A stretch of 45,644 nucleotides of DNA from Bacteroidales bacterium (GCA_029932195.1 JAOZQN010000003.1:1-45644); one strand, 5' to 3'. Counted from the first letter of the stretch, positions 4,755 through 43,131 are shown. The notes: a model not told the origin generated them from the letters alone. A program made the numbers and translations.

Positions 4755-4772
4755 TGAAAATAATTTTTATTA

Positions 4773-7665: not shown

Positions 7666-7680
7666 TATTTTTATTGACGC

Positions 7681-7768
7681 TAACTCCCAAATCATTGAGA
7701 GCCGTGCGGGTTGCAAAGTTATTCATTTTTTCTGATAATCCCAAATTTTACAGTTAGTCTTTTTTTTT
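7681..7768 (-). repeat. A-type dispersed repeat (short form) with a promoter-like pair facing gene 6235..7665
   Basis: On the minus strand: TTTG (7742..7745), 20-nt spacer, TAACTTTG (7714..7721). The gene ATG is at 7665. Confidence 0.6.
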
Positions 7769-7835
7769 AATAATTTTTCTTTTTACATCTTTATTTCCCT
7801 GTTTCATATCCATTTATAATTGAAAATCATTTTTA

Positions 7836-14074: not shown

Positions 14075-17000
14075 TTATTTTATTTTTAAAAAAATTGTTC
14101 TTTCGTTGCTATTTCCTACTCTGTCGTATGCAATAATTTTTATTCTAAGTGCTTGCCCTTTAATAAAGCCAGATATTGGTTTTCTGTAAACAAGTTTTTC
14201 TCCATCATTTATGGTATAAAATATGCCTTTTATTCCTGCAGTAGCATCGGTTGCAGAAATATGAAGTAAAGAATATGGAGTTACCGAGAATATATTTTCA
14301 CTTTCTTCAATACCACTCGGAGTTAGCACTATTTTTATTTCGGGAGCGGTGTTGTCTGCAACAACTTCTATGCTCTTTTTCGTTTCACGATTAGAAACAT
14401 TGTCAATTGCATAATATGATATTTTTTTATTACCATTTCCTTTTACTGAAAAAGGCTTGTCATATTGGCGATTTCCTGCTCCAGTGTTATAATATATTTT
14501 ATTAATTCCAGACGCATTGTCTCCCGACGAAATTTTAAGTTTTGTTTTGGAGCTTACAATTATTTTGTCGGCAGGCTTAAAAGTTTCGCCAACAAAAGAA
14601 ATTGAACTATTTGGTGGTTCTGTATCAATATAAATTTTTTGAGTTTCTTTTTTTATATTTGCAACTTTGTCTTCTGCAAAATAATTAAAATAATACAACC
14701 CATTTTTCTGAGGAAAACTTATATTTTGATTTACATATTCTTGTGTTTTACCTCCACTAATATTATATTTAATATTTTTTACTTCGGTTGTTTTCTCTTC
14801 TGCCGATAAAGAAATTGTGCCATATTTGGATAAGTAAAGTGTGCTTCCTTTGGTGTGCTGCGAACCATGTGCCAAAAGTTCTATTTCTGGCGGATTTTGG
14901 TCAATAATTATTGGCAAAAATTGGATACGTTCCTTATTTTCAACATTATCAGTTGCATAATAATATAAGGTGTGAGTCCCCTCGCTGAGTTTTGCAAAAT
15001 CGGTAGAAGAGATTTTACTGCGATATATGCGAGCTTTTTCTTCTTTATCAAAATAATAATAAATATTAGCAACTCCCGACAAATTGTCGGTTGCAGTGAG
15101 TGAAATTTTTGATTTATTTGATAAAATATTTCCAAAATTATTTGCCCCAAATTCTGCAACTGTCAGAGGCGGAGTAATATCAATAATAAAACTATCTACA
15201 TGATTTTTTTCCTGATTTTTAACGCTGTCAATTGCATAATAACTAATAGTATATTTTTGCTCACGGCTAAATATTTTTAAATCGGATTTGTATTTACCAA
15301 ACTCCGAGCCATTTACAGAGTATAAAATAGCATCTAATCCCGAACTTGTTTTTTTGTTGTCTTCTGATGATAATTTTAAATTCAAATTATTTCCATAATA
15401 AATTGTTTTACCAACAGTGTATTTTTTGGCTCCGCTGTAAACTGCTTTTGTTTTTGGCGAAATTCCATCAATTGGAATTTTAAAACGTTGATTTGTGAAC
15501 GAATTTTTAATTTTTAGCTCATTAATTCCGTGTTTGTTAAACATTAACGGTTTGTTGTCTTCTGTTAAAACAAGGTATGATTTTGCATCTTCGTCTGGCG
15601 AAGCTGATATTTTTATATAAAATGGTAAATTTGTTGAACCAATAAGTTGCTCGTTGCCCATTATCCAATTTTTTGGGTGTTGCTCTGTTTGTGTGATAAT
15701 TTTTCGTGTTTTTTCTTCGACTCGGATAAAAACATTTTGAGGTTCTTCTCTATTGTTCACGTTGTCGGTAGAATAGAAACTAAAATTATAAATTTGTCCT
15801 GTTTCAAAAAAAAGAGTGTCTGTATAAATTTGCTCTGTTTCGTTGTTGATACTAAGAAAAGTCTGTTTTACTCCCGCTTCCATGTCGGTAGATTTTAGCA
15901 CAATTCCAGTATTTCCTGAAATAATTAATGTGTCTTTGTTCCAAAAACAGGATTTTGTAGTTTTATAATAGGTTTTTGGTGGGGAAATATCAAGATAAAT
16001 ACTTTTACGATATTTTTGACTTCTGTTTTCTACCTTATCAAAAGCAAAATATGTAATTCTGTGCAAACCAGAACGGTTATCCAAAGTAAACTCATTTTCG
16101 TATTTTAAATTTGGGTCTGTATTTAATTCATATTCAATTCGTTCTATTTGAGAAAGCGAGTCCGAAGCTGTTATAGATATTTGAGGTTGTGAGGCAACAA
16201 AACTGGTGTTTTCTTTTTCAAAAATATTTCCAGACACAATAAGTTCTGCTTTTGGTAATTCTATATCGTAAATAAATTCCCACTTATTTATTTCTTCTAT
16301 ATTTCCCACATTATCAACTGAGTAGTAAGTTAAAGAATACGAACCTGCTTTTAATTTTGTTAATTCTATAGGCTTTATATATTTCTCTTCTTTTTTATCG
16401 TTAATTTTATAAAAAATAGTTTTTACTCCCGACAATTCGTCGGCACTTGTGAGAACTATTTTTGCTTCTTTAGATAAAATATTTTCATCATAAATTCCAC
16501 TAATTTCTCGTTCTGTTTTTGGAGAAGTTAAATCTACATAAAATTTTATAGCTTTTGGAGTTTCAATATTTCCAACATTGTCAATAGAATAATAATTTAT
16601 AGTATGCTCTCCATTTTCAAAACTTTGATTAAAATTTTGGATATTTTCAAAAGTAGAATTATTTTTGGAAATAAAAGCACTATTCCAACCAGATAGTTTG
16701 TCGGTTGCATTGATTTTTATTTTTAAATCTTTCCCGTAAAAAGTTGCTTTTTTCGTTTTATATTTTTGAGCATTTTTTAAAAATATTTCTGAAGCAGGGG
16801 CAGTTGCATCGCCATAAATATCATAGCATTGTTTAATTTTTTTTGTTCCATTTTTAGTTTTTAATGCCACATTATTACAAATTGTATTTTTGCCTTCCGA
16901 AAAATACATTTCGTCGCCAGTGCTTGGTTTTGCTTCCGTTGTAATTCCTTGCCCGTTTGGTTGGCTGGAAATATTTAGAAAAACAGGCAAAGAACATGGA

Positions 17001-17152
17001 GCAAAAAGTTTACCCAAGTCATTGGTATAATATACTTTTTGATGCTCCAACTGTTTTGCCGTTTGCGAAAAAGTGAGATTATATGTTAAAATCAATATAA
17101 ATATTGATAAAATTTTATGGTATTTAAACTGTAATTTATTTGTTGTAATCAC
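14075..17152 (-). CDS. Large secreted protein of tandem Ig-like / OmpL47-type (chitobiase C-terminal-like) repeats
   Basis: 1025 aa with a signal peptide. About 9 repeats carry the recurring ...D.LSG(V/I)..I.Y......Y..P......G.H.I.YY(S/A).DNVGN.E pattern. Confidence 0.75.
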   Translation of the reverse strand: MITTNKLQFKYHKILSIFILILTYNLTFSQTAKQLEHQKVYYTNDLGKLFAPCSLPVFLNISSQPNGQGITTEAKPSTGDEMYFSEGKNTICNNVALKTKNGTKKIKQCYDIYGDATAPASEIFLKNAQKYKTKKATFYGKDLKIKINATDKLSGWNSAFISKNNSTFENIQNFNQSFENGEHTINYYSIDNVGNIETPKAIKFYVDLTSPKTEREISGIYDENILSKEAKIVLTSADELSGVKTIFYKINDKKEEKYIKPIELTKLKAGSYSLTYYSVDNVGNIEEINKWEFIYDIELPKAELIVSGNIFEKENTSFVASQPQISITASDSLSQIERIEYELNTDPNLKYENEFTLDNRSGLHRITYFAFDKVENRSQKYRKSIYLDISPPKTYYKTTKSCFWNKDTLIISGNTGIVLKSTDMEAGVKQTFLSINNETEQIYTDTLFFETGQIYNFSFYSTDNVNNREEPQNVFIRVEEKTRKIITQTEQHPKNWIMGNEQLIGSTNLPFYIKISASPDEDAKSYLVLTEDNKPLMFNKHGINELKIKNSFTNQRFKIPIDGISPKTKAVYSGAKKYTVGKTIYYGNNLNLKLSSEDNKKTSSGLDAILYSVNGSEFGKYKSDLKIFSREQKYTISYYAIDSVKNQEKNHVDSFIIDITPPLTVAEFGANNFGNILSNKSKISLTATDNLSGVANIYYYFDKEEKARIYRSKISSTDFAKLSEGTHTLYYYATDNVENKERIQFLPIIIDQNPPEIELLAHGSQHTKGSTLYLSKYGTISLSAEEKTTEVKNIKYNISGGKTQEYVNQNISFPQKNGLYYFNYFAEDKVANIKKETQKIYIDTEPPNSSISFVGETFKPADKIIVSSKTKLKISSGDNASGINKIYYNTGAGNRQYDKPFSVKGNGNKKISYYAIDNVSNRETKKSIEVVADNTAPEIKIVLTPSGIEESENIFSVTPYSLLHISATDATAGIKGIFYTINDGEKLVYRKPISGFIKGQALRIKIIAYDRVGNSNERTIFLKIK

Positions 17153-17164
17153 TTTAAAATTAGT

Positions 17165-18199
17165 CTAATCTGTTATTATTATTTTTATTTCTGTTACACT
17201 TTTTCCTGTAATTTTGGATATTTCTTCAATATTATTCCCTTTGTATAATAATTTAAAAATTGTTTTTTCGGTTTCTGCTTTTTGTTTTTCGGTTTCTATT
17301 TGTTCTATAATTTCTCTACTTTTTGCTATGCCGTCTATAAGTCCATTTTCGTAAAAACCTTTTTCGTATTCTTTTATGCCTTCGGTTATTTTTTTCGTAT
17401 TTTTTATGTAAATAAAATCTTCTTGGTTAAAAAATTTAGTAATCAGCCTTTTTATGACTTCTGAAAAAACTGGGTCTTTTTTATATTCTTGAAAATCGGA
17501 GATTGTATTGTTAAAATTTCTTGTTTTTTCGGCAAGTTCAAACCAGTTTTGGTATTTTACGTTGTTTTTATTTTTAACAATATTATGTTGAAACATGAAT
17601 ATTAATTTATTCCTTTGCAAAAAATCAAGCGAGTTACTGTTGTTGTTTAAAATTGCTAATATTTCTTGTCTTTTTAATAAAAGGTCTTTGATTTTTTCCA
17701 CACTCCAAAGTTCGGGGTCTCTGATAAAATTGGCGAGTTTGTCTGGATAATTTGAATAACTCATAAAATTTTCCTCAAAATTAAGAGACTCATCTACAAG
17801 CCAAACAAGAGTTATTGTTGGCACTAAACGACGATAATCTTTTATTTCTTTTTCCGAACTTCCTGTGCTTATGTGTTTTACCGGCAAATTTTCTAACTGC
17901 AAACCTGTATTTATCGCATGATACAAAAAAAAGCGTTGGATAATATCCGGTTTGTCCCACTGTTGCATTTCTATTATTATGTGCCGATTTTCTGTTTTGC
18001 AACGAAAGTCAAATTTTACAGAACGAGAGTCGTCTGTTAGCAGATTATTTTTTTCAAGATGTTCTATTTCTTGAATTGAAATATCCAAAAAATCTTCTAA
18101 AAAACGTTTAGCGATTTTTAAATCCGAAAATATTTTCTTAAAATACCGGTCGTAATTTAGTGGGGCGAGATAGCCTGTTTTGAATTTTTTGTTTAACAT
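17165..18199 (-). CDS. Rpn-family / PDDEXK_2 (TIGR01784-like) recombination-promoting nuclease-like protein
   Basis: 344 aa. N-terminal LAPLNYDRYFKKIFSD...AKRFLEDFL and FDFRCKTENRHIIIEMQQW core, typical of this family. Confidence 0.7.
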   Translation of the reverse strand: MLNKKFKTGYLAPLNYDRYFKKIFSDLKIAKRFLEDFLDISIQEIEHLEKNNLLTDDSRSVKFDFRCKTENRHIIIEMQQWDKPDIIQRFFLYHAINTGLQLENLPVKHISTGSSEKEIKDYRRLVPTITLVWLVDESLNFEENFMSYSNYPDKLANFIRDPELWSVEKIKDLLLKRQEILAILNNNSNSLDFLQRNKLIFMFQHNIVKNKNNVKYQNWFELAEKTRNFNNTISDFQEYKKDPVFSEVIKRLITKFFNQEDFIYIKNTKKITEGIKEYEKGFYENGLIDGIAKSREIIEQIETEKQKAETEKTIFKLLYKGNNIEEISKITGKSVTEIKIIITD

Positions 18200-18268
18200 A
18201 ATTTTTCTAATTTATTAATTTAACACAAAGATACAAAAAAAACTTTTCTAAAGTTAGAAATAATTATT

Positions 18269-20026
18269 CTAATCGTTGTAGTCGTCTGCTGTTAGTTTTC
18301 GTATTTTAAACTGAATTTCTTTTTCCGACTGCTGTTTTAGGTTATCTGTGGCTTTTATTTTTATGGTATAAGTTCCTACTTTATCCATAATTATAGCTGT
18401 TTTGTATTCTTTAAATGGAGACTTATTGATAGAATAAGTTACATTTTTTAAACCAGATGACATGTCGGTAGCGGCGAGAAATAAATTGGTGTATTGTGCA
18501 TAAACATTCACTCCTTCGTCGCCTGTTTCAAGTGGCGAAACGCTAAAAATTTCTTTTATTTCGGGAGCGGCATTATCAGTAATAAATAATAAAATATTAT
18601 CTCCCTCCCTATTATTTACATTATCTATTGCCCAGTATCTGCATAAAAAATTTCCCTCTTTGGTAACTTGAAAATCGTTAGTGTAGGTTGTTTGTTGTTC
18701 GTTACCTACAACATATACTATTTCTTTAATTCCAGAATGAGCATCTGTTGCTTTCAAATTAATTTTGGTGTCTTTATTTATCCAAATAGTAGTGTTTTGG
18801 GCATAAAAATCTCCCGACATTTTATATTTTGTAGCTGGTGGCACTAAATCCATTTGATATTTTTTCCGTTTATTTGTAGATTTATTTCCAAGTTTATCTT
18901 CTGAATAATAAGTTACAGAAAAAGGTCCTGTTTTTAATGAAAGTGGAAATGGATTTTCGTAAGAAGTAAATTTATTGCTGTTATTTATAGAATATTTGAT
19001 GTTCTTTACCTCACTTTTATCATCGGTCGCCGAGAAAGTTATTAGCGACTGTGCCGAAACATATTCTGTTATTCCTTCTTTATGAATTGCTCCTTTTATA
19101 GTTATAGTTGGTTTTGGAGATTCTTTATCATAGTAAAAGTCAAATTTTTTCAGTTCTTCTTTATTGTTCACGTTATCAACAGCATAGTAACTTATTGTGT
19201 GATTTCCATTGCTAAGGCTTTGGATATTTATTTTGCCTACGTAAATAGAAAAACTGGAACTATTATCAAATTTATAATATATTTTCTTAACACCAGATGA
19301 ATTATCTTTACTTGTTAAAACTATTTTTGTTGCACTTGATAAAATATTATCAATAAAATTATTTTCCACAGAGTTTATTGTTTCGGGAGCAGATAAATCA
19401 ACAATAAATTTTACGGTTTTAGGTTTGTTAAAATATCCGACCATGTCCACAGCGTAATATTGCACAAAAAAATCTTTTTCTGTGGTAAAATCAATAGGAG
19501 CAGAGTTTACGTTGTAAGGCTTACCATCTATTGATATTAGCATGTTTTTTACGCCAGAATACTCATCTTTTGCAGAAAAAGTGCAGTTTAATTTTTGTCC
19601 AAAATAAGTTTTACCATTAGTTGTATATTTTGGAGCATTATTAAATTTATGCGAAATTACTGGAGGTTCACCATCTGCAAAAAATCTGAATTTTGTTTCG
19701 TCCAGACTAATGGCATTTATCCACCGAACGTATTGATTTCCAGACATTTCAATTTTTATGCCCTCTTTGTTCTTTTCGTAGTTCCCATTCTTATTTATAT
19801 CTACATTATCCAATAAATAAGAGGGTGAGCCATCTTCTGCCGAAGGCGACAGGCGAATAAAAACAGGAAGGTCGCTGGGCCAATATAATTCCTCTTCTTC
19901 AATGTTTTCATACACTGCTTTGGTGTGTTCTAACTGATTAGCTGGACTAACATTTTGACTGATTGCCTTTTGTGCCGAAAATAATAAAAGCAATATGCTT
20001 AAGAAATAAATGTGTTGAGTTTTCAT
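18269..20026 (-). CDS. Secreted Ig-like/OmpL47-type repeat protein, paralog of 14075..17152
   Basis: 585 aa. Signal peptide, the same N-terminal QLEH.K.(V)Y...LPVF(I/L) module and the same SGVK.I.Y...YY(A/S)(V/I)DNV(G/N)N repeats. Confidence 0.75.
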   Translation of the reverse strand: MKTQHIYFLSILLLLFSAQKAISQNVSPANQLEHTKAVYENIEEEELYWPSDLPVFIRLSPSAEDGSPSYLLDNVDINKNGNYEKNKEGIKIEMSGNQYVRWINAISLDETKFRFFADGEPPVISHKFNNAPKYTTNGKTYFGQKLNCTFSAKDEYSGVKNMLISIDGKPYNVNSAPIDFTTEKDFFVQYYAVDMVGYFNKPKTVKFIVDLSAPETINSVENNFIDNILSSATKIVLTSKDNSSGVKKIYYKFDNSSSFSIYVGKINIQSLSNGNHTISYYAVDNVNNKEELKKFDFYYDKESPKPTITIKGAIHKEGITEYVSAQSLITFSATDDKSEVKNIKYSINNSNKFTSYENPFPLSLKTGPFSVTYYSEDKLGNKSTNKRKKYQMDLVPPATKYKMSGDFYAQNTTIWINKDTKINLKATDAHSGIKEIVYVVGNEQQTTYTNDFQVTKEGNFLCRYWAIDNVNNREGDNILLFITDNAAPEIKEIFSVSPLETGDEGVNVYAQYTNLFLAATDMSSGLKNVTYSINKSPFKEYKTAIIMDKVGTYTIKIKATDNLKQQSEKEIQFKIRKLTADDYND

Positions 20027-20190
20027 TTAATAAATGTGTTATTTTTTTAAAAGTTATTTTTATACTCCCTTGCAAAGCTTGGGTGTTTATATATCTGTTT
20101 ATCAGGAAATTATTAGGTTTTGCATTGTTGGTTTTTACTAAATTTAATATTTATACTAAAAAAGGTTTAGTTGTTTCTTAGATTTACTTA

Positions 20191-20411
20191 ATTAGTGTCT
20201 GGACGGAAATAGATAACAATTTATATATCAAATAAATACAAGGCTAAATCAATTTGAATGTTTAAAAACAAAAAAAGATAAAACACTGATAATCACGGTG
20301 TAAAAAAAACAGACAATGCTATAAGTTTGTAAAATACAAAACATTCAAACCAATTTAACAAGATAACACACTGTATGATTGCTTATTACCTATTTCCGTC
20401 CAGAGACTAAT
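20191..20411. mobile_element. 221-bp MITE-like element, copy 2 (identical to 4773..4993), TA-flanked
   Basis: Constant offset of 15418 nt from copy 1, with no mismatch or indel seen. It is inserted in a sequence whose uninterrupted relative lies at 41898..41983. Confidence 0.8.
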
Positions 20412-20470
20412 TACAAAATGCAAAAAGTAAAGATTTTAACCTAATTCAGTATAACATATTTGTTTATCAG

Positions 20471-21068: not shown

Positions 21069-24000
21069 ATGAAATATAAACAAAAAACATTAAGCTTAGT
21101 TTTTGCAATTTTTTTAATTGTTTCACTAAATTTCACAGGATATTCACAAATAACCGTTGATGACACTACACCTGGAGGAGTAGAAACTTTTACTGTTCCT
21201 GCTGGTGTTACTTCACTTACCGTAGAATGTATTGGTGGTGGCGGTGGTGGTGGTGCTGCCGTAGCTACAGGAGCAGGTGGCGGTGGCGGTGGTGCTTATT
21301 CCATGGCTGTAATAGTTGTAACTCCCGGACAAAATATTAGCTACACTGTAGGTAGTGGTGGTCCAGGAGGACCAATGGCAGGAGATGGACAAAATGGAAG
21401 TGTTAGCTCTTTTGGAGTAGGACCAACATTAGTATCAGCAACTGGCGGAACAGGAACAGTTGCAGATGCTCCACTTGGCGGAACTGGAGGTTCTTCTGGG
21501 AGTTGTATCGGTGATGCTTCTTTTAGTGGTGGTGTTGGTGGTAATTTTACAATGGTTATGGGATTTTTTCCCGCAGGTGGTGGCGGCGGTGGTGCTGCAG
21601 GAGCATTAGGAGTTGGAGCAACAGCAGTAGGTCCACTTGGAGGTGCAGGAACAGCACCAGGAGGAAATGGTGCTGATGGAGGAAATGGAGGCTCGCCAAG
21701 TCTAGAAGGTTTATTTGTTGGACAAACAGGTTCTAGTCCAGGAGGTGGTGGTTCTGGTGGTGGAACTGGTGGTGCAGGTGCTTCTATTGGAGGTGATGGT
21801 GCAGACGGTTTAGTTAGAATAACTTATGCCGCTTCATGTGGTCCGGGAACACAGCCAAGTAATAATTCTGTTGGTTCAATAACTGGAACTTCTGCAACAA
21901 TAAGTTGGACTGCTGGAAGTGGAAGTGGAGGAGAGGTTATTTTCTTAAAACAAGGAAGTGCAATAGGAACAGACCCTGTGGACAATACAACTTATGCTGC
22001 AAATTCTGCATTTGGTTCTGGAGACGAAGTTGAAGTTGGTGCTTTTGCAATTTATAATGGTAGTGGAACTTCTGCACCAGTAACAGGATTAGTAGCAAAT
22101 ACTACTTATTATTATTCTGTTTTTACATATAATTCTGCAGGACCTTGCTATTTATCTCCAACAACAATAACGGGTAGTTTTACAACATTAGCTTGTGTGC
22201 CACCTGCAATTCAACCTTCTGATCCTTCAGTTGCTTGCTTAGAACACGAGACTCTAAGTTTTACTTTTACTCGTGGAAACGGGCAAAGGGCAATTGTTGT
22301 GGCAAAAGCTGTTACAAATGTAGATGCAGACCCAGTATATAGCACAATTTATACAGCAAATCCAAATTTTGGAAGTGGAACACAAATAGGAACAGGTAAT
22401 TATGTTGTTTATGATGGCAACGATGCAGGAACTATTACTGTTCCAATAACTGGATTAACACCAGGAACAGAGTATTTCTTTAAAGCCTACGAATATGACG
22501 AATCTCCAAATTGTTACAATCCAAATTCGCCTGCAAATGCAAGTGGAACAACACGTAATCCTGCATTTTATTCATCAAGCACAACATCGCAAAATACTAC
22601 AAATGTAGAACGTAATGCTTTGGCACAAGATGTTATTCTTTTAACTGTTGTTGTAAACGGAGGTGAAGATTATGCAGCTACAATGAATTCTATTACATTT
22701 AATTCCAATGGAACAACAAATACTGCAACAGACTTAACAAATGTTAGAGTTTTTTATACAGGTAGTGATAATACTTTTTCTGATGAAACTCAATTTGGTA
22801 GCACTTTTACCACTTTTGGAACAAATACTGCAAACGATAATTTTGCTTTATTACAAGGAAATAATTATTTTTGGATAGCCTACGATGTGAAAAATACTGC
22901 ATCACTCGGAAATGTTTTAGATGCAGAAGTTACATCTATAAATATAACAGATTATAATGGAACATCAAATGAAACACCAACTGCCACAGCACCGGCAGGA
23001 AGCAGGTTAATTATTAACGAGCCTTGCGGGATTGCAACACCAGTAGCAAAAGCTCCACAAGCAGGTTGTAATACTTCAACAAGTCAAGGAGAATTTTTAC
23101 AGGCTGTTTCGTTTGGAACAGAAGGTGGAACTTCTGATTATTCGTTTTCAGGTTCTTGTGCACCAGCAGTTAGTTACTATGACAGAACTGCAACAAATAA
23201 TTTTACGGTTTTAGAGGGTTCTACTAATAATCTTAGTATTACTTGGAATGACTGGTTGGGTTTATTTTATGAATACAATGTATGGATAGACTGGAATAAT
23301 AATGGTGATTTTCGTGATGCAGGTGAAAGATATCCTGCATCAGGAGGGGTAGCTGTAGGAAGTCCTATTAATAATATCCTAATACCTGTTACTGCAACTT
23401 CGGTTAAAATGCGAATATGGGTGCAAGCTGATGTTAGTTGGGATTGTCCATATAATGTTTCAAACGGACCATCAAGTACTTCATTAGGTCAAATAATGGA
23501 CGTTACAGTATTAATACCAGATGCAACAGGACCATTACCTGCACCACCATCTGGAGTTTCTTGTGCCACACTTGCACCAACCGTAACAACACCAGTAAAT
23601 TACACACACGAAGAAACAGCAAGTCAGTTGACTGCCACAGGAACAAGTCTTTTGTGGTATTCAGATCCAAAAGATGGAGTAGGCTCAGGGACAGCTCCTA
23701 CACCAACTACAAATTCCACAGGAACTCAGACTTATTATGTTTCTCAAAATACAGGTTGTGAAGGACCAAGAACACAAATTGCTGTAAGAGTAGAAACTCC
23801 TGCTTTTCCCACAGCACCAGTTGCAAGTGTCTCTTCACAAGCAACATGTGTAGATGGTGGAGAGATAGACCTTTCTGGTTTGCCAACTCCTGGAACATGG
23901 ACTATTGAACCAAGCACAACAGCAGGTTCGGGTGGTTCATATACTTTTTCCGACCTTGACCCTGGAAATTATAGCTATACCGTAATTAATAGTATAGGTT

Positions 24001-24083
24001 GTATATCTCCTGAATCAAATATTGTAACAATAGATGCTTATCTAACAGAACCAGCATCTTTAAATGGGCACTACAGGATTTAG
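21069..24083 (+). CDS. N-terminal part of a giant T9SS adhesin-like protein (Gly-rich domain, FN3-like repeats, GEVED-like domain); reading frame ended by a MITE
   Basis: Signal peptide, GGGGGGAAVATGAGGGGGGAY glycine-rich domain, FN3-like SWTAGSG...YYYSVFTYN repeats, and WIDWNNNGDFRDAGE (GEVED-like). The last 5 codons and the TAG stop lie inside the inserted element. Confidence 0.8.
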   Translation: MKYKQKTLSLVFAIFLIVSLNFTGYSQITVDDTTPGGVETFTVPAGVTSLTVECIGGGGGGGAAVATGAGGGGGGAYSMAVIVVTPGQNISYTVGSGGPGGPMAGDGQNGSVSSFGVGPTLVSATGGTGTVADAPLGGTGGSSGSCIGDASFSGGVGGNFTMVMGFFPAGGGGGGAAGALGVGATAVGPLGGAGTAPGGNGADGGNGGSPSLEGLFVGQTGSSPGGGGSGGGTGGAGASIGGDGADGLVRITYAASCGPGTQPSNNSVGSITGTSATISWTAGSGSGGEVIFLKQGSAIGTDPVDNTTYAANSAFGSGDEVEVGAFAIYNGSGTSAPVTGLVANTTYYYSVFTYNSAGPCYLSPTTITGSFTTLACVPPAIQPSDPSVACLEHETLSFTFTRGNGQRAIVVAKAVTNVDADPVYSTIYTANPNFGSGTQIGTGNYVVYDGNDAGTITVPITGLTPGTEYFFKAYEYDESPNCYNPNSPANASGTTRNPAFYSSSTTSQNTTNVERNALAQDVILLTVVVNGGEDYAATMNSITFNSNGTTNTATDLTNVRVFYTGSDNTFSDETQFGSTFTTFGTNTANDNFALLQGNNYFWIAYDVKNTASLGNVLDAEVTSINITDYNGTSNETPTATAPAGSRLIINEPCGIATPVAKAPQAGCNTSTSQGEFLQAVSFGTEGGTSDYSFSGSCAPAVSYYDRTATNNFTVLEGSTNNLSITWNDWLGLFYEYNVWIDWNNNGDFRDAGERYPASGGVAVGSPINNILIPVTATSVKMRIWVQADVSWDCPYNVSNGPSSTSLGQIMDVTVLIPDATGPLPAPPSGVSCATLAPTVTTPVNYTHEETASQLTATGTSLLWYSDPKDGVGSGTAPTPTTNSTGTQTYYVSQNTGCEGPRTQIAVRVETPAFPTAPVASVSSQATCVDGGEIDLSGLPTPGTWTIEPSTTAGSGGSYTFSDLDPGNYSYTVINSIGCISPESNIVTIDAYLTEPASLNGHYRI

Positions 24084-24247
24084 AGTGAGAGAAATCTGTA
24101 TTTTGCTCACTGTCAGGCTTTTAGTGATTAGCAAAAAAACAAAGAAAATTAATGAAATTTATGAGCATAACAATCTATAATACTGACATATACAATTGAA
24201 ATAAATTCATTTTTTCAATATTTCTCTCACTCTAAATCCTGTAGAGC
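24068..24247. mobile_element. 180-bp MITE with 28-bp terminal inverted repeats and a 10-bp target-site duplication, inserted in the adhesin gene
   Basis: Left TIR GCACTACAGGATTTAGAGTGAGAGAAAT (24068..24095). The right TIR (24220..24247) is its reverse complement with one mismatch. Direct repeats CTTTAAATGG lie at 24058..24067 and 24248..24257. Confidence 0.85.
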
Positions 24248-24318
24248 CTTTAAATGGAACAAAGGATATAACTCTCGGAACTGGCGATTACCCCTCGTTT
24301 CAGGCAGCAATAGATAGT

Positions 24319-27135
24319 TTGGTGCAATATGGAATAAACGCACCAATTGTTTTTGAAGTTACAGATGCTGTTTACTACGAAAAACTTGTATTTCCAGAAA
24401 TATGTGGAGCAAGTTCGGTAAATACCATTACTTTTACTACATATTGTGACGTTTGTGCTATGGCTGAAATTCAGGCAGATGGAACAGTTACAGATAATTA
24501 TACTGCAAAACTTGATGGAGGACAATATTACACCTTTGATAGAATTAAATTCACAGCATTAGATGCCAGTTATTCTCGTGTTGCCGAAATTACAAATAAT
24601 GCAGAGTCTCTTGATTTTAAAAATTGTATTTTTAAAGGAATGACAACCGCAGGAAATAGTGATGACAATATTTTGGTATTTTCGGATAGCGAAAGTATTA
24701 GTGGTATTACTTTTTTAGGAAATACTTTTTCTGATGGAAGTCAAGGATTATACCTAAAAGGAAATAGTGATACCGATTTAATGGTGAAAATTTCTATAAA
24801 TAATAACACTTTTGAAAATCAGGCATATAGAGGAATTTCATTAATAAATAGCGATAGAATACAACTTTCAACCAACACCTTAAATTCAACTTCTGCAAGA
24901 ACAGATTTTACTGGTTTTTATCTTCAAACAATTAAAAATAATTCTCAAATTTCTAATAATAAAATTTATGCCACAACAGCAAGTGGAACAGGCTTATTTA
25001 TGGATAATGTCAGTGGAACATCTGGCGACCAAGCGGATATTTTTAATAATATGATTTCTATTGGAAGTTTGGGGATTAGTTATGCTATTGACATTGTAAG
25101 CACCACAGGAACAACAGAGTATCTTAATTTTTATCACAATAGTGTTTTTAATAATTATATTTTGGGAGGGGCAGGTATAAGAATTAATACTGCTAATAAT
25201 CTTGAATTTAAAAATAATAATTTTGTTGCTAATAATTCATTTTTGGCAGGAGTTAGTTTTGAAGAAAGTGGTTTAACTGCATCAGTTGCTGAATATAATA
25301 ATTATATGCCAAATATTGCAATACCAGGAGTTGGGGATATTTCAATAGACCCTAATTATTTGGCTATAACAGATTTACATACAGAAACTATTGCTCTTCA
25401 GGTAGGAACAGCCATAGCAGGAATAACATTAGATATTGACGAAGAGACTCGTCAAGCACCACCATATATGGGAGCAGACGAATTTCTTGGGCTTGTAAGT
25501 TGGACAGGAACAGCAAATACTGACTGGAATAATACAGGAAATTGGAGTAGCGGACAAGTTCCAACACGTGGAACAACTATTGAAATCCCAAATGTTACAA
25601 ACTACCCTGAAACTAACTCAAATGCAAGCAAATTAGCAGAATGTAGAAATATGACTATTGATGCAGGTTCTCACGTTTGGATTGAACCAATGAAATATCT
25701 TACTATCCACGAAAATTTTAATCAAAATGGAGAGTTTGTTTTACAATCAGATGCAACAGGAAATGCTTCGCTAATTGCCAATAGAACAGTTAATTATGGA
25801 GGAAGTGCTGTTACAAAATCAGAACTATATTTATCCAATTCTAAATGGCATTACGTATCAAGCCCGATAACAAATGCAGATGCTACATTATTTAACTATA
25901 CGCCGTATTTTTATTGGTATGATGAAGTAACAGCAGACTCTTGGTTAAATGATGTTTTTAGTGGAACAATGGGCTGGACTTTGCAACCAACAGGAGCAAT
26001 GCCAGTAGGAAAAGGCTATGCTGTGATAGACAATACAGCTGCCCAAACGGTTGATTATGTTGGCGAACACAACAATGGAGATATTACTGTAAATTTATCT
26101 CATACCGATAATACCGGTTTTCATGGTAATACAATATTTGATGGTTGGAATTTAGTCGGAAATCCTTATCCTTCAACACTTAATTGGAATGAAGAAAGTA
26201 TTACTAAAACAAATATTGATAATGCAATTTATGTTTATGCCGATGATGGTTCGGGTATTTATAATAATTATATGTATTATCTTTCAGGAGTTCCTGATAG
26301 CCCTTATCCTTCAATTGCATTGAATATGGGAACATGTTTTGTTGCTCCAATGCAAAGTTTTTATGTAAGAGCAAGTGCTGCGGGTTCAAGCGTGGAGTTT
26401 ACCAACAAGGCAAGAGAACACAGTAACACAGCATTTTACAAAGATAGCTTGATTGATAATACACCAAGAATTTTCTTGCAACTTGAAAAAGATGGTATAA
26501 TAGACCAAACAGCTGTGAGATTTATTCCCGAAGCAACAGACCAATACGATGGACAGTTTGATGCACTAAAATTATATTCTACTTCGGAACAAGTGCCACA
26601 AATTTATTTCTTAACAGGATTAGACGGTATTCACATGTCAATAAATACGTTACCTGAGATATACGACAATTTGACTATTCCTATTGGTGTAAAAACTTTA
26701 ATTTCTGGCGATTATAAAATTACAATTCCAGAACTAAATCTTGATGATAATACAACAGCTTATATTCAAGATTTAAAATCAGATAAAATGTTTGCAATTA
26801 CAGATAATTTTAACTTTAAGTTCTACTCCATAGAAGGAAATCATAAGGATAGATTTCAGCTTGTTTTTTCGGTAGAAGAAACAACAGAAATAATTGATAA
26901 TGAGCAAAAAACAATAAAAATTTATTCAAATTCAAATAATGTTCATGTTCTAATAAATCCTGAAAATATGGATTCTAAAATTGAGATTTATAATATTATG
27001 GGACAAAAAGTATATGAAGGTAATTTAACAACCACTCACTCACAAATTTCTTTGCAGGTTGCAAGTGGAAATTATGTTGTAAAAGTTATAAAAGAAGGAA
27101 ATATTGTTATGGAAAAAATATTTATAGAGAATTAG
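24319..27135 (+). CDS. C-terminal part of the same adhesin (parallel beta-helix repeats plus T9SS type-A C-terminal sorting domain). The frame is open from 24258.
   Basis: Beta-helix-like NNTFENQAYRGISLINSDRIQLSTNTL repeats. The C-terminal KIYSNSNNVHVLI...IEIYNIMGQKVYEG...SGNYVVKVI is a Por_Secre_tail-type CTD. There is no signal peptide or proper start of its own. Confidence 0.8.
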   Translation: MVQYGINAPIVFEVTDAVYYEKLVFPEICGASSVNTITFTTYCDVCAMAEIQADGTVTDNYTAKLDGGQYYTFDRIKFTALDASYSRVAEITNNAESLDFKNCIFKGMTTAGNSDDNILVFSDSESISGITFLGNTFSDGSQGLYLKGNSDTDLMVKISINNNTFENQAYRGISLINSDRIQLSTNTLNSTSARTDFTGFYLQTIKNNSQISNNKIYATTASGTGLFMDNVSGTSGDQADIFNNMISIGSLGISYAIDIVSTTGTTEYLNFYHNSVFNNYILGGAGIRINTANNLEFKNNNFVANNSFLAGVSFEESGLTASVAEYNNYMPNIAIPGVGDISIDPNYLAITDLHTETIALQVGTAIAGITLDIDEETRQAPPYMGADEFLGLVSWTGTANTDWNNTGNWSSGQVPTRGTTIEIPNVTNYPETNSNASKLAECRNMTIDAGSHVWIEPMKYLTIHENFNQNGEFVLQSDATGNASLIANRTVNYGGSAVTKSELYLSNSKWHYVSSPITNADATLFNYTPYFYWYDEVTADSWLNDVFSGTMGWTLQPTGAMPVGKGYAVIDNTAAQTVDYVGEHNNGDITVNLSHTDNTGFHGNTIFDGWNLVGNPYPSTLNWNEESITKTNIDNAIYVYADDGSGIYNNYMYYLSGVPDSPYPSIALNMGTCFVAPMQSFYVRASAAGSSVEFTNKAREHSNTAFYKDSLIDNTPRIFLQLEKDGIIDQTAVRFIPEATDQYDGQFDALKLYSTSEQVPQIYFLTGLDGIHMSINTLPEIYDNLTIPIGVKTLISGDYKITIPELNLDDNTTAYIQDLKSDKMFAITDNFNFKFYSIEGNHKDRFQLVFSVEETTEIIDNEQKTIKIYSNSNNVHVLINPENMDSKIEIYNIMGQKVYEGNLTTTHSQISLQVASGNYVVKVIKEGNIVMEKIFIEN

Positions 27136-27232: not shown

Positions 27233-27339
27233 GGCTCACATTGAAAAGTTGAGGAGGAGTAATTACGAACCGTATCAAAAAGTTAGAAATTACTCTAAAT
27301 TTTACAACCCGTATGATCTACAATGATGCTGACATGTTT
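27233..27339 (+). repeat. B-type dispersed repeat (full copy) overlapping the 3' end of the DUF1016 pseudogene
   Basis: Near-identical to 11569..11675. The last 15 codons or so and the stop of ORF 27295.. are encoded by the repeat. Confidence 0.7.
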
Positions 27340-28404
27340 TTTCATATCGGACACGGCTACCGGTGGCGTTTGTTTTGTAGCGTTTTCTTTTTCGCTTAGT
27401 TCATTTTCAAGTTGTTCTACCGTTGGTAGTTTAGTTTTTATCTCATCTGGTATTGCTTTTGTTAATTGATAGTCACTTATTCCAATTGGTTTGTTTATAT
27501 CTCTCAGTGCAAATTCTGCTTCAACTCTGTCTTTTTTCTTGCAAAGTAAAATTCCTATTGTCGGATTATCCTCTTCTCGTTTCATCAATGTATCAACCGC
27601 AGACAAATAAAAATTTAGCTTTCCTGCAAACTCGGGTTTGAAAATTCCTGCTTTTAGTTCTATCACAACATAGCACCGCAGCTCTAAATGATAAAACAAT
27701 AAATCAATGTAATAATCTTTCTGACTGACTTTTATGTGATATTGGTTGCCGACATAGGCAAATCCTTTTCCTAATTCAATCAAGAAATCTGTAATATGCT
27801 TTGTTAATTTTGTTTCGATTTCTTTTTCGAGAGCATCGTCTTCTAAGCCAAGAAATCCGAATTGATACGGGTCTTTTATTGTTTCTTGTGCTAAATCTGA
27901 TTGAGGAACAGGCAAAGTTCTTTCAAAATTAGTTATTGTATTACCTTTTCTCTCAAAATAGTTTTTGTCAATTTGTATTTCAAGATTGTCTCTTGACCAA
28001 CCGTTTTCTATCGTAGCACTTGCATAAAATACAGCTTTATCAATATCTTTTATCCGTGAAATTATCAATCTATTATGTCCCCACGGAATTTGTGCCACAG
28101 CTTGTGGCACAAATTCAAATTGCTCTGAATAAAATAGATACCATTGACGCATTGCATAAACATTCCTTTTAGAAAAACCTTTTATATCGGGAAATGATTT
28201 TCGTAAATCCAATGCAAAATGCTCAATAAAGCTACTGCTCTAATCTGTATTTTTTTGTTTTTCAACAACTTCTTTTCCAATATCCCAATACAGCTCTAAC
28301 AAGACAGAGTTTACTGAAAGTGTAGCACGTAATTGAGCTGATTTGATTTTCTGCTTAACATTACTGAGCCAATTTTGATAATCTTTATTTTGTTTTAAAA
28401 TCAT
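27295..28404 (-). pseudogene. DUF1016/YhcG PD-(D/E)XK nuclease paralog with an in-frame TAG (28240..28242)
   Basis: ATG at 28404. 370 codons in one frame. Codon 55 is TAG where the paralog 3283..4329 has the conserved Trp (GWGKSIVEQLAKDL versus D*SSSFIEHFALDL). The nuclease core IDLLFYHLELRCYVVIELKAG is intact. Confidence 0.75.
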
Positions 28405-29545: not shown

Positions 29546-29577
29546 TAAATATTGTATTTTTATAGCGGTAACGCACA

Positions 29578-29752
29578 AATCATTGTGAGCCGTGCGGGTT
29601 GTAAAGTTACTCGTTTTTTTTGACAATTCCAAATTAAAACGACTTTGTTTTTTTTTAATTATAGATTAACTTACAAACAGTAAGGATAATGCTTTAAGAA
29701 ATAAAAAAAATAAATGTTTTACATTATCCTCCTCAATTTTTTAAAGTGAGCC
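29578..29752 (-). repeat. A-type dispersed repeat (long form) with a promoter-like pair facing 28949..29545
   Basis: On the minus strand: TTTG (29630..29633), 20-nt spacer, TAACTTTA (29602..29609). The outer end reads GGCTCACTTTAAAAAATTGAGGAGGATAATG. Confidence 0.7.
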
Positions 29753-29783
29753 ATGAATGGCTTTTTTATTTATCAATATATTC

Positions 29784-32679: not shown

Positions 32680-33339
32680 TTATTGTAAATAATTTAGATT
32701 TATTAATGCCTTTCGTGCTTCATCTTTAAATAATTTAAAAGATGGTAACATTTCTAATTTTTGTTGTTTTATTTTTTTAGACAATGGAATATATAAGTCT
32801 GAAATTTTAAGTTTGTTTCTTCTTCTTGATTTATTTAGTTGAGATTTCACAAGGGCTTCTTCTATTACTTTTTTAGGATTGGCTATTTTTTCAATTAAAG
32901 TAGTTTTACAAGGCAGACCTAACTCTGAACAGGATTTATCTGTATTAATCTCTTTTAAAAAAAGTTCAATATCTGCAAGCATCCATGCTTCCGTCATTTG
33001 CACAGGAATAATAGCAACCAAATTTTTACAAGTATTTTTTGTGTTTTTTACTAATTCAAATGCTGGTTTTATTTTATTCTCAATAACTTTTTTATTAGAA
33101 GTAAAGTCTGAATCACAATGGACACAAATTATATCAAAATAATTATTTGTTGTTGCAATTGCTTGTATTTTTTTATTAAAAGATTTATTATTATTTGAAA
33201 CATGTATTGGTGGATGAATTTCTATAACAGTCTTACTTTCAAAAAGTAATGCTTCAAACGTTCTTTCTATAATTTTAGCAAGAAAACGCTCGTCTGTGCT
33301 ACCTTCGGTTGTGTATGCTATTTGTAAAATATTACTCAT
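32680..33339 (-). CDS. DUF4276-like protein with a Toprim-like E...DxD signature
   Basis: 219 aa. IAYTTEGSTDERFL (Glu), ICVHCDSD (DxD), PVQMTEAWMLAD. Lies 3 nt downstream of the ATPase gene. Confidence 0.65.
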   Translation of the reverse strand: MSNILQIAYTTEGSTDERFLAKIIERTFEALLFESKTVIEIHPPIHVSNNNKSFNKKIQAIATTNNYFDIICVHCDSDFTSNKKVIENKIKPAFELVKNTKNTCKNLVAIIPVQMTEAWMLADIELFLKEINTDKSCSELGLPCKTTLIEKIANPKKVIEEALVKSQLNKSRRRNKLKISDLYIPLSKKIKQQKLEMLPSFKLFKDEARKALINLNYLQ

Positions 33340-33342
33340 AAT

Positions 33343-34743
33343 TTAATTTAGGTTATTGCTTGTTTCTAAATATTTTTTCACTTCTAATTCTGTCATTTTT
33401 AATTCTTTAGTTGTTATAAAATCAAATTCCACTTGTCTATTTGCCTTTCTAACAGGTAATATTTTTGTAGTTTTAAATTGATACCTATTATTATTTTTTA
33501 TAGACATATTTGTTACTAATTTTGAAAACCATACAGAAATATTTTTAGAAAAATTATTTTCTTTAAAAAGTAAACCTACAAAGGTAGCAGAATGAGTGTT
33601 TACAATTATTTGTCGGAGTGGGAAATTAATATCCTCATCATCAAACAAATCCGAGGAAAGACCTGTCAACAATTCTATCATTGTGTTAATTCTAAATGGG
33701 TGGATTCCATTTTCGGGTTCTTCAAAACAAAGTGTTCCCATATATTTATTATCATATTTTAAGATACAAAGTATTAGTAATCTTAAAGTTCCTTCTGAAA
33801 GCACTCGTGATGAAAATTCTCTACCATCTTCACTAATTAATTTTATTATAAATTTATTTTCAGCGACTTCTTCTATAACATCAACTTTTATAAAATTTGA
33901 CAATAAATTATTAAGTTCTCGTGAAATATCATTTAAAATAGTTTCATCATCAGTTTTTAAGCGATATAATGCGGCTGCTAAATTTCCTCCAGTAGAAGTA
34001 ACAATATCCGATGCCATACGTGGACTTGGTTTACTTAATTCTTCAGGGTTTAGTTGTAAAAAATTCCAATTTATCATTTCTTCTTTTGTGGCAAATACAT
34101 GAGGAAAATTCACACTATCAACACTACTTAATAGTGTTTGAGGGGCATTATTTGCAATAATTTCTCGCCCTCCTTCACCTATGCTACCATCCTGAGATAT
34201 TCTAATATATTTTTTTTTGTTTTTTTCTTCTGTTGCAATATAAGGAACACTTCTTCTGCCATATACTTTTGGGCGGCGATTTTCTAATAATTTTTTATCA
34301 ACGTTTTTTTTTATCCACTTATCTTCTTGATGTTTTATAGGTTTTAAAACTTCATGAGTAATAAATAAATCATCAAAGCCTTTTGAATTTCGTTTTCGTT
34401 CAATTTCAAGTTCGTATCTGAGACGAGTATATTTTAGAGTGGAATTCTCACCCCAATTATCTGTTATACTGACATTTAAAAGTATTTCTACAGCAAGTTT
34501 TATTTCATGTGCAAGTTTTCCATTTGGATATTGTGTAAATTGTTCTCGTGCTTCTCCTCTTAAATTTACATTGTTAAAAGCAGTTTTTAAATCCATTTCT
34601 GCAAGATTCGATAATAATTTCATAGCATCAAATAGGTTACTTTTTCCTGATGCATTAGTTCCTGCAACAACAGTAAATGGTGTAAATTCCATTTTGAAAT
34701 TACTAAACGTTTTAAATCCGTCTATTTCTATTCTTGTTATCAT
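33343..34743 (-). CDS. ABC/SMC-type (AAA_15/AAA_21-like) ATPase
   Basis: 466 aa. MITRIEIDGFKTF...VVAGTNASGKSN (Walker A), LSEGTLR signature-like motif, Walker B LCFEEPENGIHP, H-loop VNTHS. Confidence 0.8.
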   Translation of the reverse strand: MITRIEIDGFKTFSNFKMEFTPFTVVAGTNASGKSNLFDAMKLLSNLAEMDLKTAFNNVNLRGEAREQFTQYPNGKLAHEIKLAVEILLNVSITDNWGENSTLKYTRLRYELEIERKRNSKGFDDLFITHEVLKPIKHQEDKWIKKNVDKKLLENRRPKVYGRRSVPYIATEEKNKKKYIRISQDGSIGEGGREIIANNAPQTLLSSVDSVNFPHVFATKEEMINWNFLQLNPEELSKPSPRMASDIVTSTGGNLAAALYRLKTDDETILNDISRELNNLLSNFIKVDVIEEVAENKFIIKLISEDGREFSSRVLSEGTLRLLILCILKYDNKYMGTLCFEEPENGIHPFRINTMIELLTGLSSDLFDDEDINFPLRQIIVNTHSATFVGLLFKENNFSKNISVWFSKLVTNMSIKNNNRYQFKTTKILPVRKANRQVEFDFITTKELKMTELEVKKYLETSNNLN

Positions 34744-41730: not shown

Positions 41731-41897
41731 AAATTAAAATTAATAATTAGCCAATTTAAGCGAAGTTATTTTTTTCTTTAACAATTCAAAAAATGTGAGA
41801 ATATCGGGAATATTTGAACCTTTCTTGAAGCAGTTAAAGGGAAAAAAAACAAGTTTAAATGGGTAATTATTTATTTTAATTTGCCTAAGGAACTATA

Positions 41898-41983
41898 CTA
41901 AAAAAGGTTTATTTGTTTATTAGGTTGTATATTAATTGATTACAAAATACAAAAAGTAAAGATTTTAACCTAATTCAGTATAA
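41898..41983 (+). repeat. Uninterrupted relative (apparent empty site) of the sequence that hosts MITE copy 2
   Basis: CTAAAAAAGGTTTATTTGTTTATTAGG...GATTACAAAATACAAAAAGTAAAGATTTTAACCTAATTCAGTATAA aligns with 20156..20190 plus 20412..20454. The TA at 41941..41942 corresponds to the duplicated TA. Confidence 0.6.
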
Positions 41984-42745: not shown

Positions 42746-42751
42746 TATTTT

Positions 42752-43125: not shown

Positions 43126-43131
43126 CTAAAT

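What the first reader, a model, noticed from the sequence alone, without database searches (positions are those of the whole stretch)
21069..27135. Giant T9SS adhesin gene split by a 180-bp MITE; precise excision restores one ORF of roughly 1,960 codons
ORF 21069..24083 has a signal peptide, a Gly-rich domain, FN3-like repeats and a GEVED-like domain. It ends at a TAG 14 nt inside an element with 28-bp terminal inverted repeats (24068..24095 and 24220..24247, one mismatch). The element is flanked by a perfect 10-bp direct repeat, CTTTAAATGG (24058..24067 and 24248..24257).

Removing 24068..24257 (the element plus one duplicate) joins codon ...AAT GG|A ACA AAG... in frame with ORF 24319..27135. 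There are no stops in 24258..24318, giving ...EPASLNG-TKDITLGTGDYPSFQAAIDSLVQYGINAP.... The downstream part carries the beta-helix repeats and the T9SS type-A sorting domain.

As it stands, the N-terminal product would lack its secretion and anchoring signal. The insertion looks recent, because the target duplication is perfect. It could be polymorphic in the population, acting as an on/off switch for a surface adhesin.
Basis: seen in the sequence. Interest (0 to 1): 0.65.

Follow-up and report, generated by a model that had tools for sequence, protein, structure and literature searches.

The report
ISL3-type MITE splits T9SS adhesin gene
A 182-bp non-coding mobile element of the ISL3 family has recently jumped into a roughly 5.9-kb surface-protein gene of an uncultured hydrothermal-vent Bacteroidales bacterium and cut it in two, which is real but an ordinary kind of gene inactivation.

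Summary
Terminal inverted repeats, a flanking direct repeat and a premature TAG sit where stated. Deleting 190 bp gives one 1,958-codon ORF.

Three points were added or corrected.
- **Element limits.** The element is 24067-24248 (182 bp, GG...CC ends, 29-nt TIRs). Its target duplication is 8 bp (TTTAAATG).
- **Family.** It is an ISL3-family MITE. Full-length 1,283-1,292-bp ISs with the same termini encode a 402-aa ISL3 transposase. One of them lies in the same vent metagenome. The element is multicopy there, at roughly 10-50 times the depth of its flanks.
- **Empty site.** A roughly 90-92% identical relative in a marine metagenome has the site empty, skipping exactly these 190 bp. Differences from it are mostly synonymous in the fused frame on both sides. 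This includes 24258-24318, upstream of any restart codon.

So this was one gene. It carried a signal peptide, Gly-rich, fn3, BNR_assoc_N, GEVED and beta-helix domains, and a T9SS type-A C-terminal sorting domain. It is now a recent pseudogene.

The on/off switch idea has no support. No empty allele or inversion appears in four vent runs, though contigs at 8-12x depth would miss rare alleles. ISL3 elements are presumed to move by copy-out-paste-in.

This is a new member of a known kind, of low to moderate interest.

The parts
21069..24066 (+). 5' part of the disrupted adhesin gene. It holds a signal-peptide-like N-terminus, Gly_rich_2, fn3-like, BNR_assoc_N and GEVED domains. The last 8 nt are the target site.
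   Evidence: The frame continues into the element for 5 codons.
21069..21149 (+). Signal-peptide-like N-terminus, MKYKQKTLSLVFAIFLIVSLNFTGYSQ.
   Evidence: Read from the translation: basic n-region, hydrophobic core, Q after the likely cleavage site. No predictor was run.
24059..24066 (.). Left copy of the 8-bp target-site duplication, TTTAAATG.
   Evidence: The same 8-bp geometry is perfect (8 of 8) in L008, L019 and L022, and 7 of 8 in L004 and L015.
24067..24248 (.). 182-bp ISL3-type MITE with no coding capacity. GC is 29% over 24068-24247.
24067..24095 (+). Left terminal inverted repeat, GGCACTACAGGATTTAGAGTGAGAGAAAT.
   Evidence: It matches the ends of L025 at 20 of 21 and of L026 at 21 of 21 over the terminal 21 nt.
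24081..24083 (+). Premature TAG stop supplied by the element.
24220..24248 (-). Right terminal inverted repeat, one mismatch to the left one.
24249..24256 (.). Right copy of the 8-bp target-site duplication, TTTAAATG.
24257..27135 (+). 3' part of the disrupted gene: beta-helix region, a roughly 550-aa conserved C-terminal module, and the T9SS sorting domain. It is in frame with the 5' part once 190 bp are removed.
26920..27126 (+). T9SS type A C-terminal sorting domain (TIGR04183 / Por_Secre_tail).
   Evidence: residues 889-957 of the translation that starts at 24256, 33.6 bits against a cut-off of 23. Pfam 22.6 bits, below its cut-off of 27.

Best explanation
A single gene of about 5.9 kb encoded a 1,958-aa T9SS-secreted surface protein, a putative adhesin. 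It was recently interrupted by a 182-bp miniature inverted-repeat transposable element.

The element carries only the roughly 22-29-nt termini recognised by a group of ISL3-family transposases. It was inserted in trans by such a transposase (inferred), which made the 8-bp staggered-cut duplication TTTAAATG typical of ISL3.

Translation from the original start now ends at a TAG five codons into the element. The result is a 1,004-aa secreted fragment without the C-terminal sorting domain. The downstream 2.9 kb has no signal peptide of its own. The protein therefore can no longer be exported and anchored by the T9SS (inferred from the known requirement for both signals). The locus is a young pseudogene in a genome and community rich in MITEs.

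**Shown:** the anatomy, the multicopy state, ISL3 partners with the same ends, an empty site in a relative, and coding constraint across the junction. **Inferred:** mobilisation in trans, and loss of function.
For: - **Anatomy and fused ORF:**
- **Both junctions are real.** Contigs cross them independently in four runs from two vent samples. X1 and X2 contigs run from the flank to 24096. X1-X4 contigs run from 24219 or 24222 into the downstream flank. A separate NCBI assembly contig is 100% identical, insertion included (L024).
- **Multicopy.** Element depth is 57-612 against 5-12 for the flanks. At least 6 other left and 6 other right flanking sequences break at 24067 and 24248.
- **Same termini elsewhere.** They occur in 7 metagenome contigs and in 16 contigs of Bacteroidales, Salinivirgaceae and Lentimicrobiaceae MAGs. 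They bound non-coding elements of 179-424 bp with 8-bp duplications.
- **Full-length partners.** ISs of 1,283-1,292 bp carry these termini (L001, L025, L026, L027) and encode a 402-403-aa protein. L001's protein, the one scanned, hits DDE_Tnp_ISL3 at 1.7e-64 and NF033550 at 246.7 bits against a cut-off of 180.
- **Partner in the same community.** L025 is the contig seen in vent runs X1 and X4, at depth 13-24.
- **Empty site.** An X7 contig joins 24057 to 24248, skipping 190 nt, with a 10-nt ambiguity. The same relative covers both halves of the gene.
- **Codon-position pattern across the junction:**
- **Sorting domain only at the far C-terminus:**. PorP/SprF is encoded in the window.
- **No signal peptide after any restart codon:**
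- **Architecture seen in single proteins.** Gly_rich_2 and GEVED N-terminal parts occur with this C-terminal module and Por_Secre_tail in one polypeptide elsewhere.
- **Precedent.** A 187-nt ISL3-type MITE with 8-nt repeats splits genes in Microcystis (PMC11448079).
Against: - No database protein aligns across the junction itself. The beta-helix segment at about residues 1000-1400 has few relatives. Continuity therefore rests on the X7 contig and the codon pattern.
- The X7 contig is short (391 nt, depth 4) and comes from a 90-92% relative, not the same population.
- The full-length IS copies on short metagenome contigs do not show clean 8-bp duplications, only 3-4 of 8. Chimeric assembly of repeats is a possible cause.
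- The MITE's 124-nt interior is unrelated to any IS found. Its derivation from a particular IS is not shown.
- Copies counted by depth may lie in more than one organism.
- Loss of function was not tested.
Confidence: 0.92

Rival explanations
1. Reversible switch. The insertion is a phase-variation device. Frequent precise excision restores the adhesin gene in part of the population. Excision could be transposase-driven, or could arise by replication slippage between the flanking direct repeats, helped by the 29-bp hairpin.
For: - The flanking repeat is effectively 10 bp, and removing it with the element restores the frame exactly.
- The element folds into a long perfect-stem hairpin, at -61.8 kcal/mol with a z-score of -9.0.
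- The rest of the gene has no other lesion.
Against: - No contig with the empty site and no branch at the junction appears in any of four vent runs from two samples.
- ISL3 is presumed to use copy-out-paste-in through circles, which does not vacate the donor site.
- An intact remainder is equally expected from a recent insertion.
- Only assembled contigs at 8-12x depth were available, so alleles below roughly 10-20% would be missed.
Confidence: 0.05
2. Assembly artefact. A repeated element was wrongly threaded into the gene by the assembler.
For: - The element is a high-copy repeat. Its interior is assembled from k-mers shared with other copies, and several sequence variants exist at 24103-24126.
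Against: - Unique-flank contigs run 27-30 nt into the element on both sides in independent runs.
- A separate assembly agrees base for base.
- A perfect 8-bp target duplication is not something mis-assembly would create.
- Only the choice of interior variant could be wrong.
Confidence: 0.02
3. Two natural genes. The upstream and downstream ORFs are separate genes, and the segment between them is an ordinary intergenic region.
For: - Gene callers annotate two genes here.
Against: - A relative has the two parts joined in frame with no spacer.
- Substitutions in 24258-24318, upstream of the first possible start, are 5 of 5 synonymous in the fused frame.
- The downstream ORF has no signal peptide, yet ends in a T9SS sorting domain.
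Confidence: 0.01
4. Invertible DNA switch. The inverted repeats are recombinase sites flanking an invertible promoter segment, as in Bacteroidales invertons.
For: - Inverted repeats flank a short AT-rich segment next to a surface-protein gene in a Bacteroidales genome.
Against: - No strand-changing joints appear in any run.
- The segment is absent from the relative rather than inverted.
- It is multicopy, has target duplications, and shares its ends with ISL3 transposase-bearing ISs.
- There is no Bacteroidetes-type TAnnTTTG promoter motif in or just after it.
Confidence: 0.01

Closest known systems
ISL3-derived MITEs, for example the 187-nt Microcystis aeruginosa MITE (MaeMITEb class) described in PMC11448079
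   Same: - Length is about 180-190 bp and it is non-coding.
- The termini match those of ISL3-family ISs in the same genome or community.
- It has 8-nt target duplications and tens of copies.
- It folds as a stem-loop and is sometimes inserted in protein-coding genes, splitting them in two.
   Different: - The terminus sequence differs: GGCACTACAGGATTTAGAGTG here, GGCTCTTCG there.
- The TIRs here are much longer and nearly perfect, 29 nt against about 9 nt.
- The host is an uncultured vent Bacteroidales bacterium rather than a cyanobacterium.
- The interior is unrelated to any IS found.
ISL3 family insertion sequences (NCBIfam NF033550, Pfam PF01610), such as ISPst9, ISPpu12 and IS31831
   Same: - The partner elements L001, L025, L026 and L027 are about 1.3 kb.
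- They have GG-starting TIRs and one 402-403-aa ORF, which for L001 scores above the curated ISL3 cut-offs.
- The small elements have the 8-bp duplication typical of the family.
   Different: - The window element carries no transposase and shares only 21-24 terminal nt with these ISs.
- Clean duplications were not seen around the full-length copies.
IS or MITE inactivation of surface-protein and virulence genes, such as Correia elements in Neisseria or RUP in Streptococcus (from general knowledge)
   Same: A small non-autonomous repeat is dispersed through the genome and occasionally lands in coding sequence, truncating the product.
   Different: Those elements belong to other IS families. Some carry promoters or processing sites with shown regulatory effects. 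No such activity is shown or suggested here.

Membership tests
MITE (non-autonomous IS derivative) | Short, under about 600 bp, with no transposase ORF | tested here: met
   The element is 182 bp. No ORF of 60 aa or more lies within it.
MITE (non-autonomous IS derivative) | Terminal inverted repeats | tested here: met
   29-nt arms, 97% complementary; 0 expected by chance.
MITE (non-autonomous IS derivative) | Target-site duplication, and an empty site in a related sequence | tested here: met
   A perfect 8-bp TTTAAATG duplication. An X7 contig skips exactly element plus one repeat, 190 nt.
MITE (non-autonomous IS derivative) | Multiple copies | tested here: met
   Depth is about 10-50 times that of the flanks, and at least 6 other flanks are seen on each side in the source metagenomes. 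Only one copy lies in the 45.6-kb window. Whether all copies are in this one genome was not shown.
MITE (non-autonomous IS derivative) | An autonomous element with matching termini is available in trans | tested here: met
   L025 is a 1,286-bp IS from the same vent metagenome, with ends matching at 20 of 21. L026 matches at 21 of 21. Actual mobilisation was not tested.
ISL3 family | The partner encodes a DDE transposase of the ISL3 type | tested here: met
   PF01610 at 1.7e-64 (218 bits). NF033550 at 246.7 bits against a cut-off of 180.
ISL3 family | 8-bp target duplication and GG-starting TIRs | tested here: met
   The window element, L008, L019 and L022 match at 8 of 8, and L004 and L015 at 7 of 8. 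All copies start with GG. The full-length copies give only 3-4 of 8, which is inconclusive for those.
ISL3 family | Transposition through a circular intermediate (copy-out-paste-in) | not testable with these tools
   Known for the family from the literature. No circle junction could be looked for, because raw reads were not available.
T9SS type A cargo protein | C-terminal sorting domain (TIGR04183) | tested here: met
   33.6 bits against a cut-off of 23, at the last 70 residues of the downstream part.
T9SS type A cargo protein | N-terminal Sec signal peptide | tested here: inconclusive
   The N-terminus looks typical by eye. No signal-peptide predictor was available.
T9SS type A cargo protein | The host has a T9SS | tested here: met
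   A PorP/SprF family protein is encoded at 36136-37323. Core genes such as porK-N and sov were not looked for, as they would lie outside the window.
Adhesin (function) | Demonstrated binding activity | not testable with these tools
   Only the domain make-up (fn3, Ig-like, beta-helix, GEVED) and one relative's name, 'putative adhesin' for P0063, point this way.
Invertible promoter switch (inverton) | Both orientations are present in sequence data | tested here: not met
   No strand-changing joints in seven runs.

The most novel reading that the evidence does not exclude
The insertion might be a population-level, reversible off-switch. The effective 10-bp direct repeat brackets a 29-bp perfect-stem hairpin, which could make this MITE unusually prone to precise, RecA-independent excision. 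Vent Bacteroidales would then toggle a giant T9SS surface protein, and perhaps other MITE-hit genes, on and off.
Probability: 0.05. Interest if true: 0.5.

Novelty: new member of a known kind. Interest (0 to 1): 0.25.

Why it matters
- **Annotation.** The two called genes (1,004 aa and about 835-938 aa) are halves of one pseudogene and should not be counted as two proteins.
- **New element group.** It documents an undescribed group of ISL3 elements, with the terminus GGCACTACAGGATTTAGAGTG. The group has a varied set of 179-424-bp non-autonomous derivatives in marine and vent Bacteroidales, Salinivirgaceae and Lentimicrobiaceae MAGs. These repeats break assemblies at contig ends.
- **Mobilome activity.** It gives a dated-by-eye example of recent mobilome activity hitting surface-protein genes in a vent population.

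It opens no new mechanism.

Tried and rejected
- **First genome scan.** An exact 21-mer that reached into the subterminal part of the TIR found nothing in genome contigs. A pattern restricted to the outer 21 nt, with two degenerate positions, found 16 contigs.
- **Full-length orthologue search.** A search with the fused protein in the 5.8-billion-protein set gave only mosaic domain relatives. No alignment crossed the junction.
- **Rfam.** No family matched anywhere in the window, so a known RNA element or intron is ruled out.
- **Promoter and terminator scan.** The count around the element was no higher than in shuffles. There is no Bacteroidetes -7 motif, so an outward promoter rescuing the downstream part is not supported.
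- **More runs.** A search with the MITE-free 5' part found only one extra run, X8. X8 holds neither the junction region nor the MITE.
- **Transposase search.** tblastn with the ISL3 transposase found no copy in the window or in the MAG loci.
- The contig's identity with the X1 contig was instead shown through its length and two exact 30-mers.
- **Window against TIR-bearing MAG contigs.** No nucleotide similarity beyond the TIRs, so none of them is the same organism.

Full report

Yes. The sequence at 23940-24420 shows GCACTACAGGATTTAGAGTGAGAGAAAT at 24068-24095. Its reverse complement, with one mismatch, lies at 24220-24247. A 3-mismatch search finds only these two sites in the window, and none in 100 shuffles.

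CTTTAAATGG occurs at 24058-24067 and 24248-24257. ORF 21069-24083 translates to a 1,004-aa protein ending ...EPASLNGHYRI*, with its last residues and TAG read from the element. The frame from 24256 is open to 27135.

Joining 21069-24067 to 24258-27135 gives 5,877 nt, which is 1,958 codons and one stop. The domain claims also hold.
- Gly_rich_2, fn3/Pur_ac_phosph_N, BNR_assoc_N and GEVED lie upstream.
- Beta_helix and Por_Secre_tail lie downstream.
- The T9SS type A sorting domain TIGR04183 is above its curated cut-off, in the last 70 residues.

**2. The exact limits of the element**

The repeat finder extends the arms by one base each, to 24067-24095 and 24220-24248. In the source metagenomes, contigs of other copies part company with this locus at 24067 and 24248. 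Every related end found elsewhere begins GG(C/T)(A/T)CTACAGGATTTAGAGTG.

With those limits, complete small elements in other contigs are flanked by 8-bp repeats. The repeats are perfect in L008, L019 and L022, and match at 7 of 8 in L004 and L015.

The element is therefore 182 bp (24067-24248), with an 8-bp duplication TTTAAATG at 24059-24066 and 24249-24256. The genomic C before the target equals the element's last base. The genomic G after the target equals its first base. The 190-bp deletion arithmetic is unaffected.

**3. What the element is**

A scan of public metagenome contigs for the terminus found seven contigs. A scan of one genome per species found 16 contigs. All were MAGs of Bacteroidales (nine contigs from one MAG, often at contig ends), Salinivirgaceae and Lentimicrobiaceae.

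Pairs of termini bound non-coding elements of 179, 184, 254, 332, 390 and 424 bp. These share only the roughly 22-40 terminal nt with the window element.

In L001 the same termini bound a 1,283-bp element with one 402-aa ORF. That ORF matches DDE_Tnp_ISL3 at 1.7e-64 and the NCBIfam ISL3 transposase model at 246.7 bits against a cut-off of 180.

Relatives of this transposase at 73-81% identity lie on contigs L025, L026 and L027. There they are bounded by the same termini at 1,286-1,292 bp spacing.

L025 is a whole 1,286-bp IS whose ends match the MITE's over 20 of the terminal 21 nt. It is the contig seen when vent runs X1 and X4 were laid on L001. It has the same length, and both of that contig's overhanging 30-mers are found in it. 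Its depth there is 13-24, against 8.5-9.3 for the adhesin gene.

The element is thus an ISL3-family MITE, and a plausible autonomous partner lives in the same community. A GG-starting TIR and an 8-bp duplication are the family's hallmarks. The same logic was used for a 187-nt ISL3-type MITE that splits genes in Microcystis (PMC11448079).

**4. Is it multicopy and real at this site?**

The window comes from a hydrothermal-vent metagenome. In four runs from two samples, element depth is 57-612 while the flanks are at 5-12. At least six different sequences adjoin each end.

The right half (24125-24220) is carried by single high-depth contigs identical to this copy. That points to a recent burst of copies. 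The left half has several variants.

Contigs anchored in unique flank run 27-30 nt into the element on both sides, which is the behaviour expected of a 31-mer graph. A separate NCBI assembly contig, L024, is identical over 6,426 bp, insertion included. An assembly artefact is therefore very unlikely. Only the choice of interior variant could be wrong.

**5. Was it one gene?**

A marine metagenome run (X7) holds a relative about 90-92% identical over both halves of the gene. One of its contigs joins 24057 directly to 24248, skipping exactly 190 nt, with a 10-nt placement ambiguity. This is the empty site.

I placed the 77 listed differences between the window and that relative in the fused reading frame.
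- 57 of 77 fall on third codon positions.
- 55 of 75 changed codons are synonymous.
- None creates a stop.
- All five in 24258-24318 are synonymous. This stretch lies after the duplication but before the first possible restart codon at 24319.

That stretch was therefore coding, in this frame, along the line that separates the two lineages. No database protein aligns across the junction. However, many single proteins combine Gly_rich_2 and GEVED N-terminal parts with the same roughly 550-aa C-terminal module and Por_Secre_tail.

**6. Consequence (inferred)**

The upstream product keeps the signal-peptide-like N-terminus (read by eye) but lacks the C-terminal sorting domain. The downstream piece has that domain, but no restart codon is followed by a hydrophobic leader.

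No promoter-like excess or Bacteroidetes -7 motif lies in or after the element. The window encodes a PorP/SprF protein, so the host has T9SS parts.

T9SS cargo needs both a Sec signal and the C-terminal domain (established knowledge). Neither fragment should therefore reach the surface. The locus is a pseudogene.

It looks young for three reasons. The duplication is perfect. The TIRs differ at one base. The remaining 5.9 kb has no other lesion.

**7. The switch idea**

No empty-site contig, no branch at the junction and no inverted form appears in the four vent runs. ISL3 elements form circles and are presumed to use copy-out-paste-in (bioRxiv 10.1101/2023.06.07.543989), which leaves the donor copy in place.

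The element does form a very stable hairpin as a single strand, at -61.8 kcal/mol with a z-score of -9.0. It also sits between effectively 10-bp repeats. That geometry is known from Tn10 work to favour rare host-mediated precise excision (general knowledge).

Occasional reversion is therefore possible, but nothing here shows it. Only contigs at 8-12x depth were available, and rare alleles would be missed.

**8. Comparison and novelty**

The thing works like, and passes the tests for, an ISL3-type MITE that has inactivated a gene by insertion. The particular terminus family and its spread in marine Bacteroidales MAGs appear undescribed in the papers searched. The kind of event is well known. 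I rate it a new member of a known kind, with low to moderate interest.

**9. Caveats**

- The empty-site evidence is one short, low-depth contig from a relative, not the same population.
- Copy number by depth may include other hosts.
- The full-length IS copies lack clean duplications in short contigs.
- The MITE interior has no identified source.
- Function and loss of function are inferred from domains only.

Noticed in passing
window 4765-4995 and 20183-20413: A second MITE-like element of about 225-231 nt. Its two copies are 99% identical, with 31-nt inverted ends (TAATTAGTGTCTGGACGGAAATAGATAACAA). One copy lies about 650 nt upstream of the adhesin start, nested inside another repeat whose uninterrupted paralogue is at 41894-41983. 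It is also high-depth in run X5, at 82-95 against 3-4.
   Followed up: partly
window 4658-4763, 7669-7774, 13804-14021, 29557-29766; also 6060-6100, 11569-11675, 27233-27339: Further dispersed intergenic repeat families, 72-97% identical. The intergenic space of this genome is a mosaic of small repeats.
   Followed up: no
window 42740-43130: The intergenic block between a nitroreductase-family gene and a TPR-SpoIIE phosphatase gene is unusual. Tandem 8- and 15-nt units (consensus TTTTGAGTTATCGTG, about 12 copies) are followed by their reverse complement. Together they form a long imperfect palindrome, with arms up to 87 nt and 60 nt at 93% identity. Its function is unknown.
   Followed up: partly
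window 973-3093, 7836-9173, 9269-9709: Genes with an eCIS core domain, an AAA ATPase and a T4 gp19-like tail tube. These look like parts of an extracellular contractile injection system.
   Followed up: no
window 12210-13736; 32680-34743; 3283-4329 and 27295-28212; 37494-39206: Several defence-like or mobile-looking genes are present.
- Two AAA_15/AAA_21 ATPases, one next to a DUF4276 gene.
- Two YhcG/DUF1016 PDDEXK nucleases. The one at 27295-28212 lacks the first about 54 positions of the N-terminal domain model, and its 3' end overlaps the repeat at 27233-27339.
- An AAA-ATPase_like/PDDEXK_9 gene.
   Followed up: no
window 36136-37323; 14075-20026; 40013-41554: A PorP/SprF T9SS membrane protein gene and several large Ig-like or PKD-domain proteins lie on the opposite strand. 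The neighbourhood is rich in surface proteins.
   Followed up: no
L003/L013 8134-8387 (Salinivirgaceae MAG), L004 350-773, L019 1747-2078, L022 4270-4659: Non-autonomous elements of 254-424 bp share only the ISL3-type termini with the window MITE. One transposase group therefore seems to serve many unrelated passengers.
   Followed up: partly
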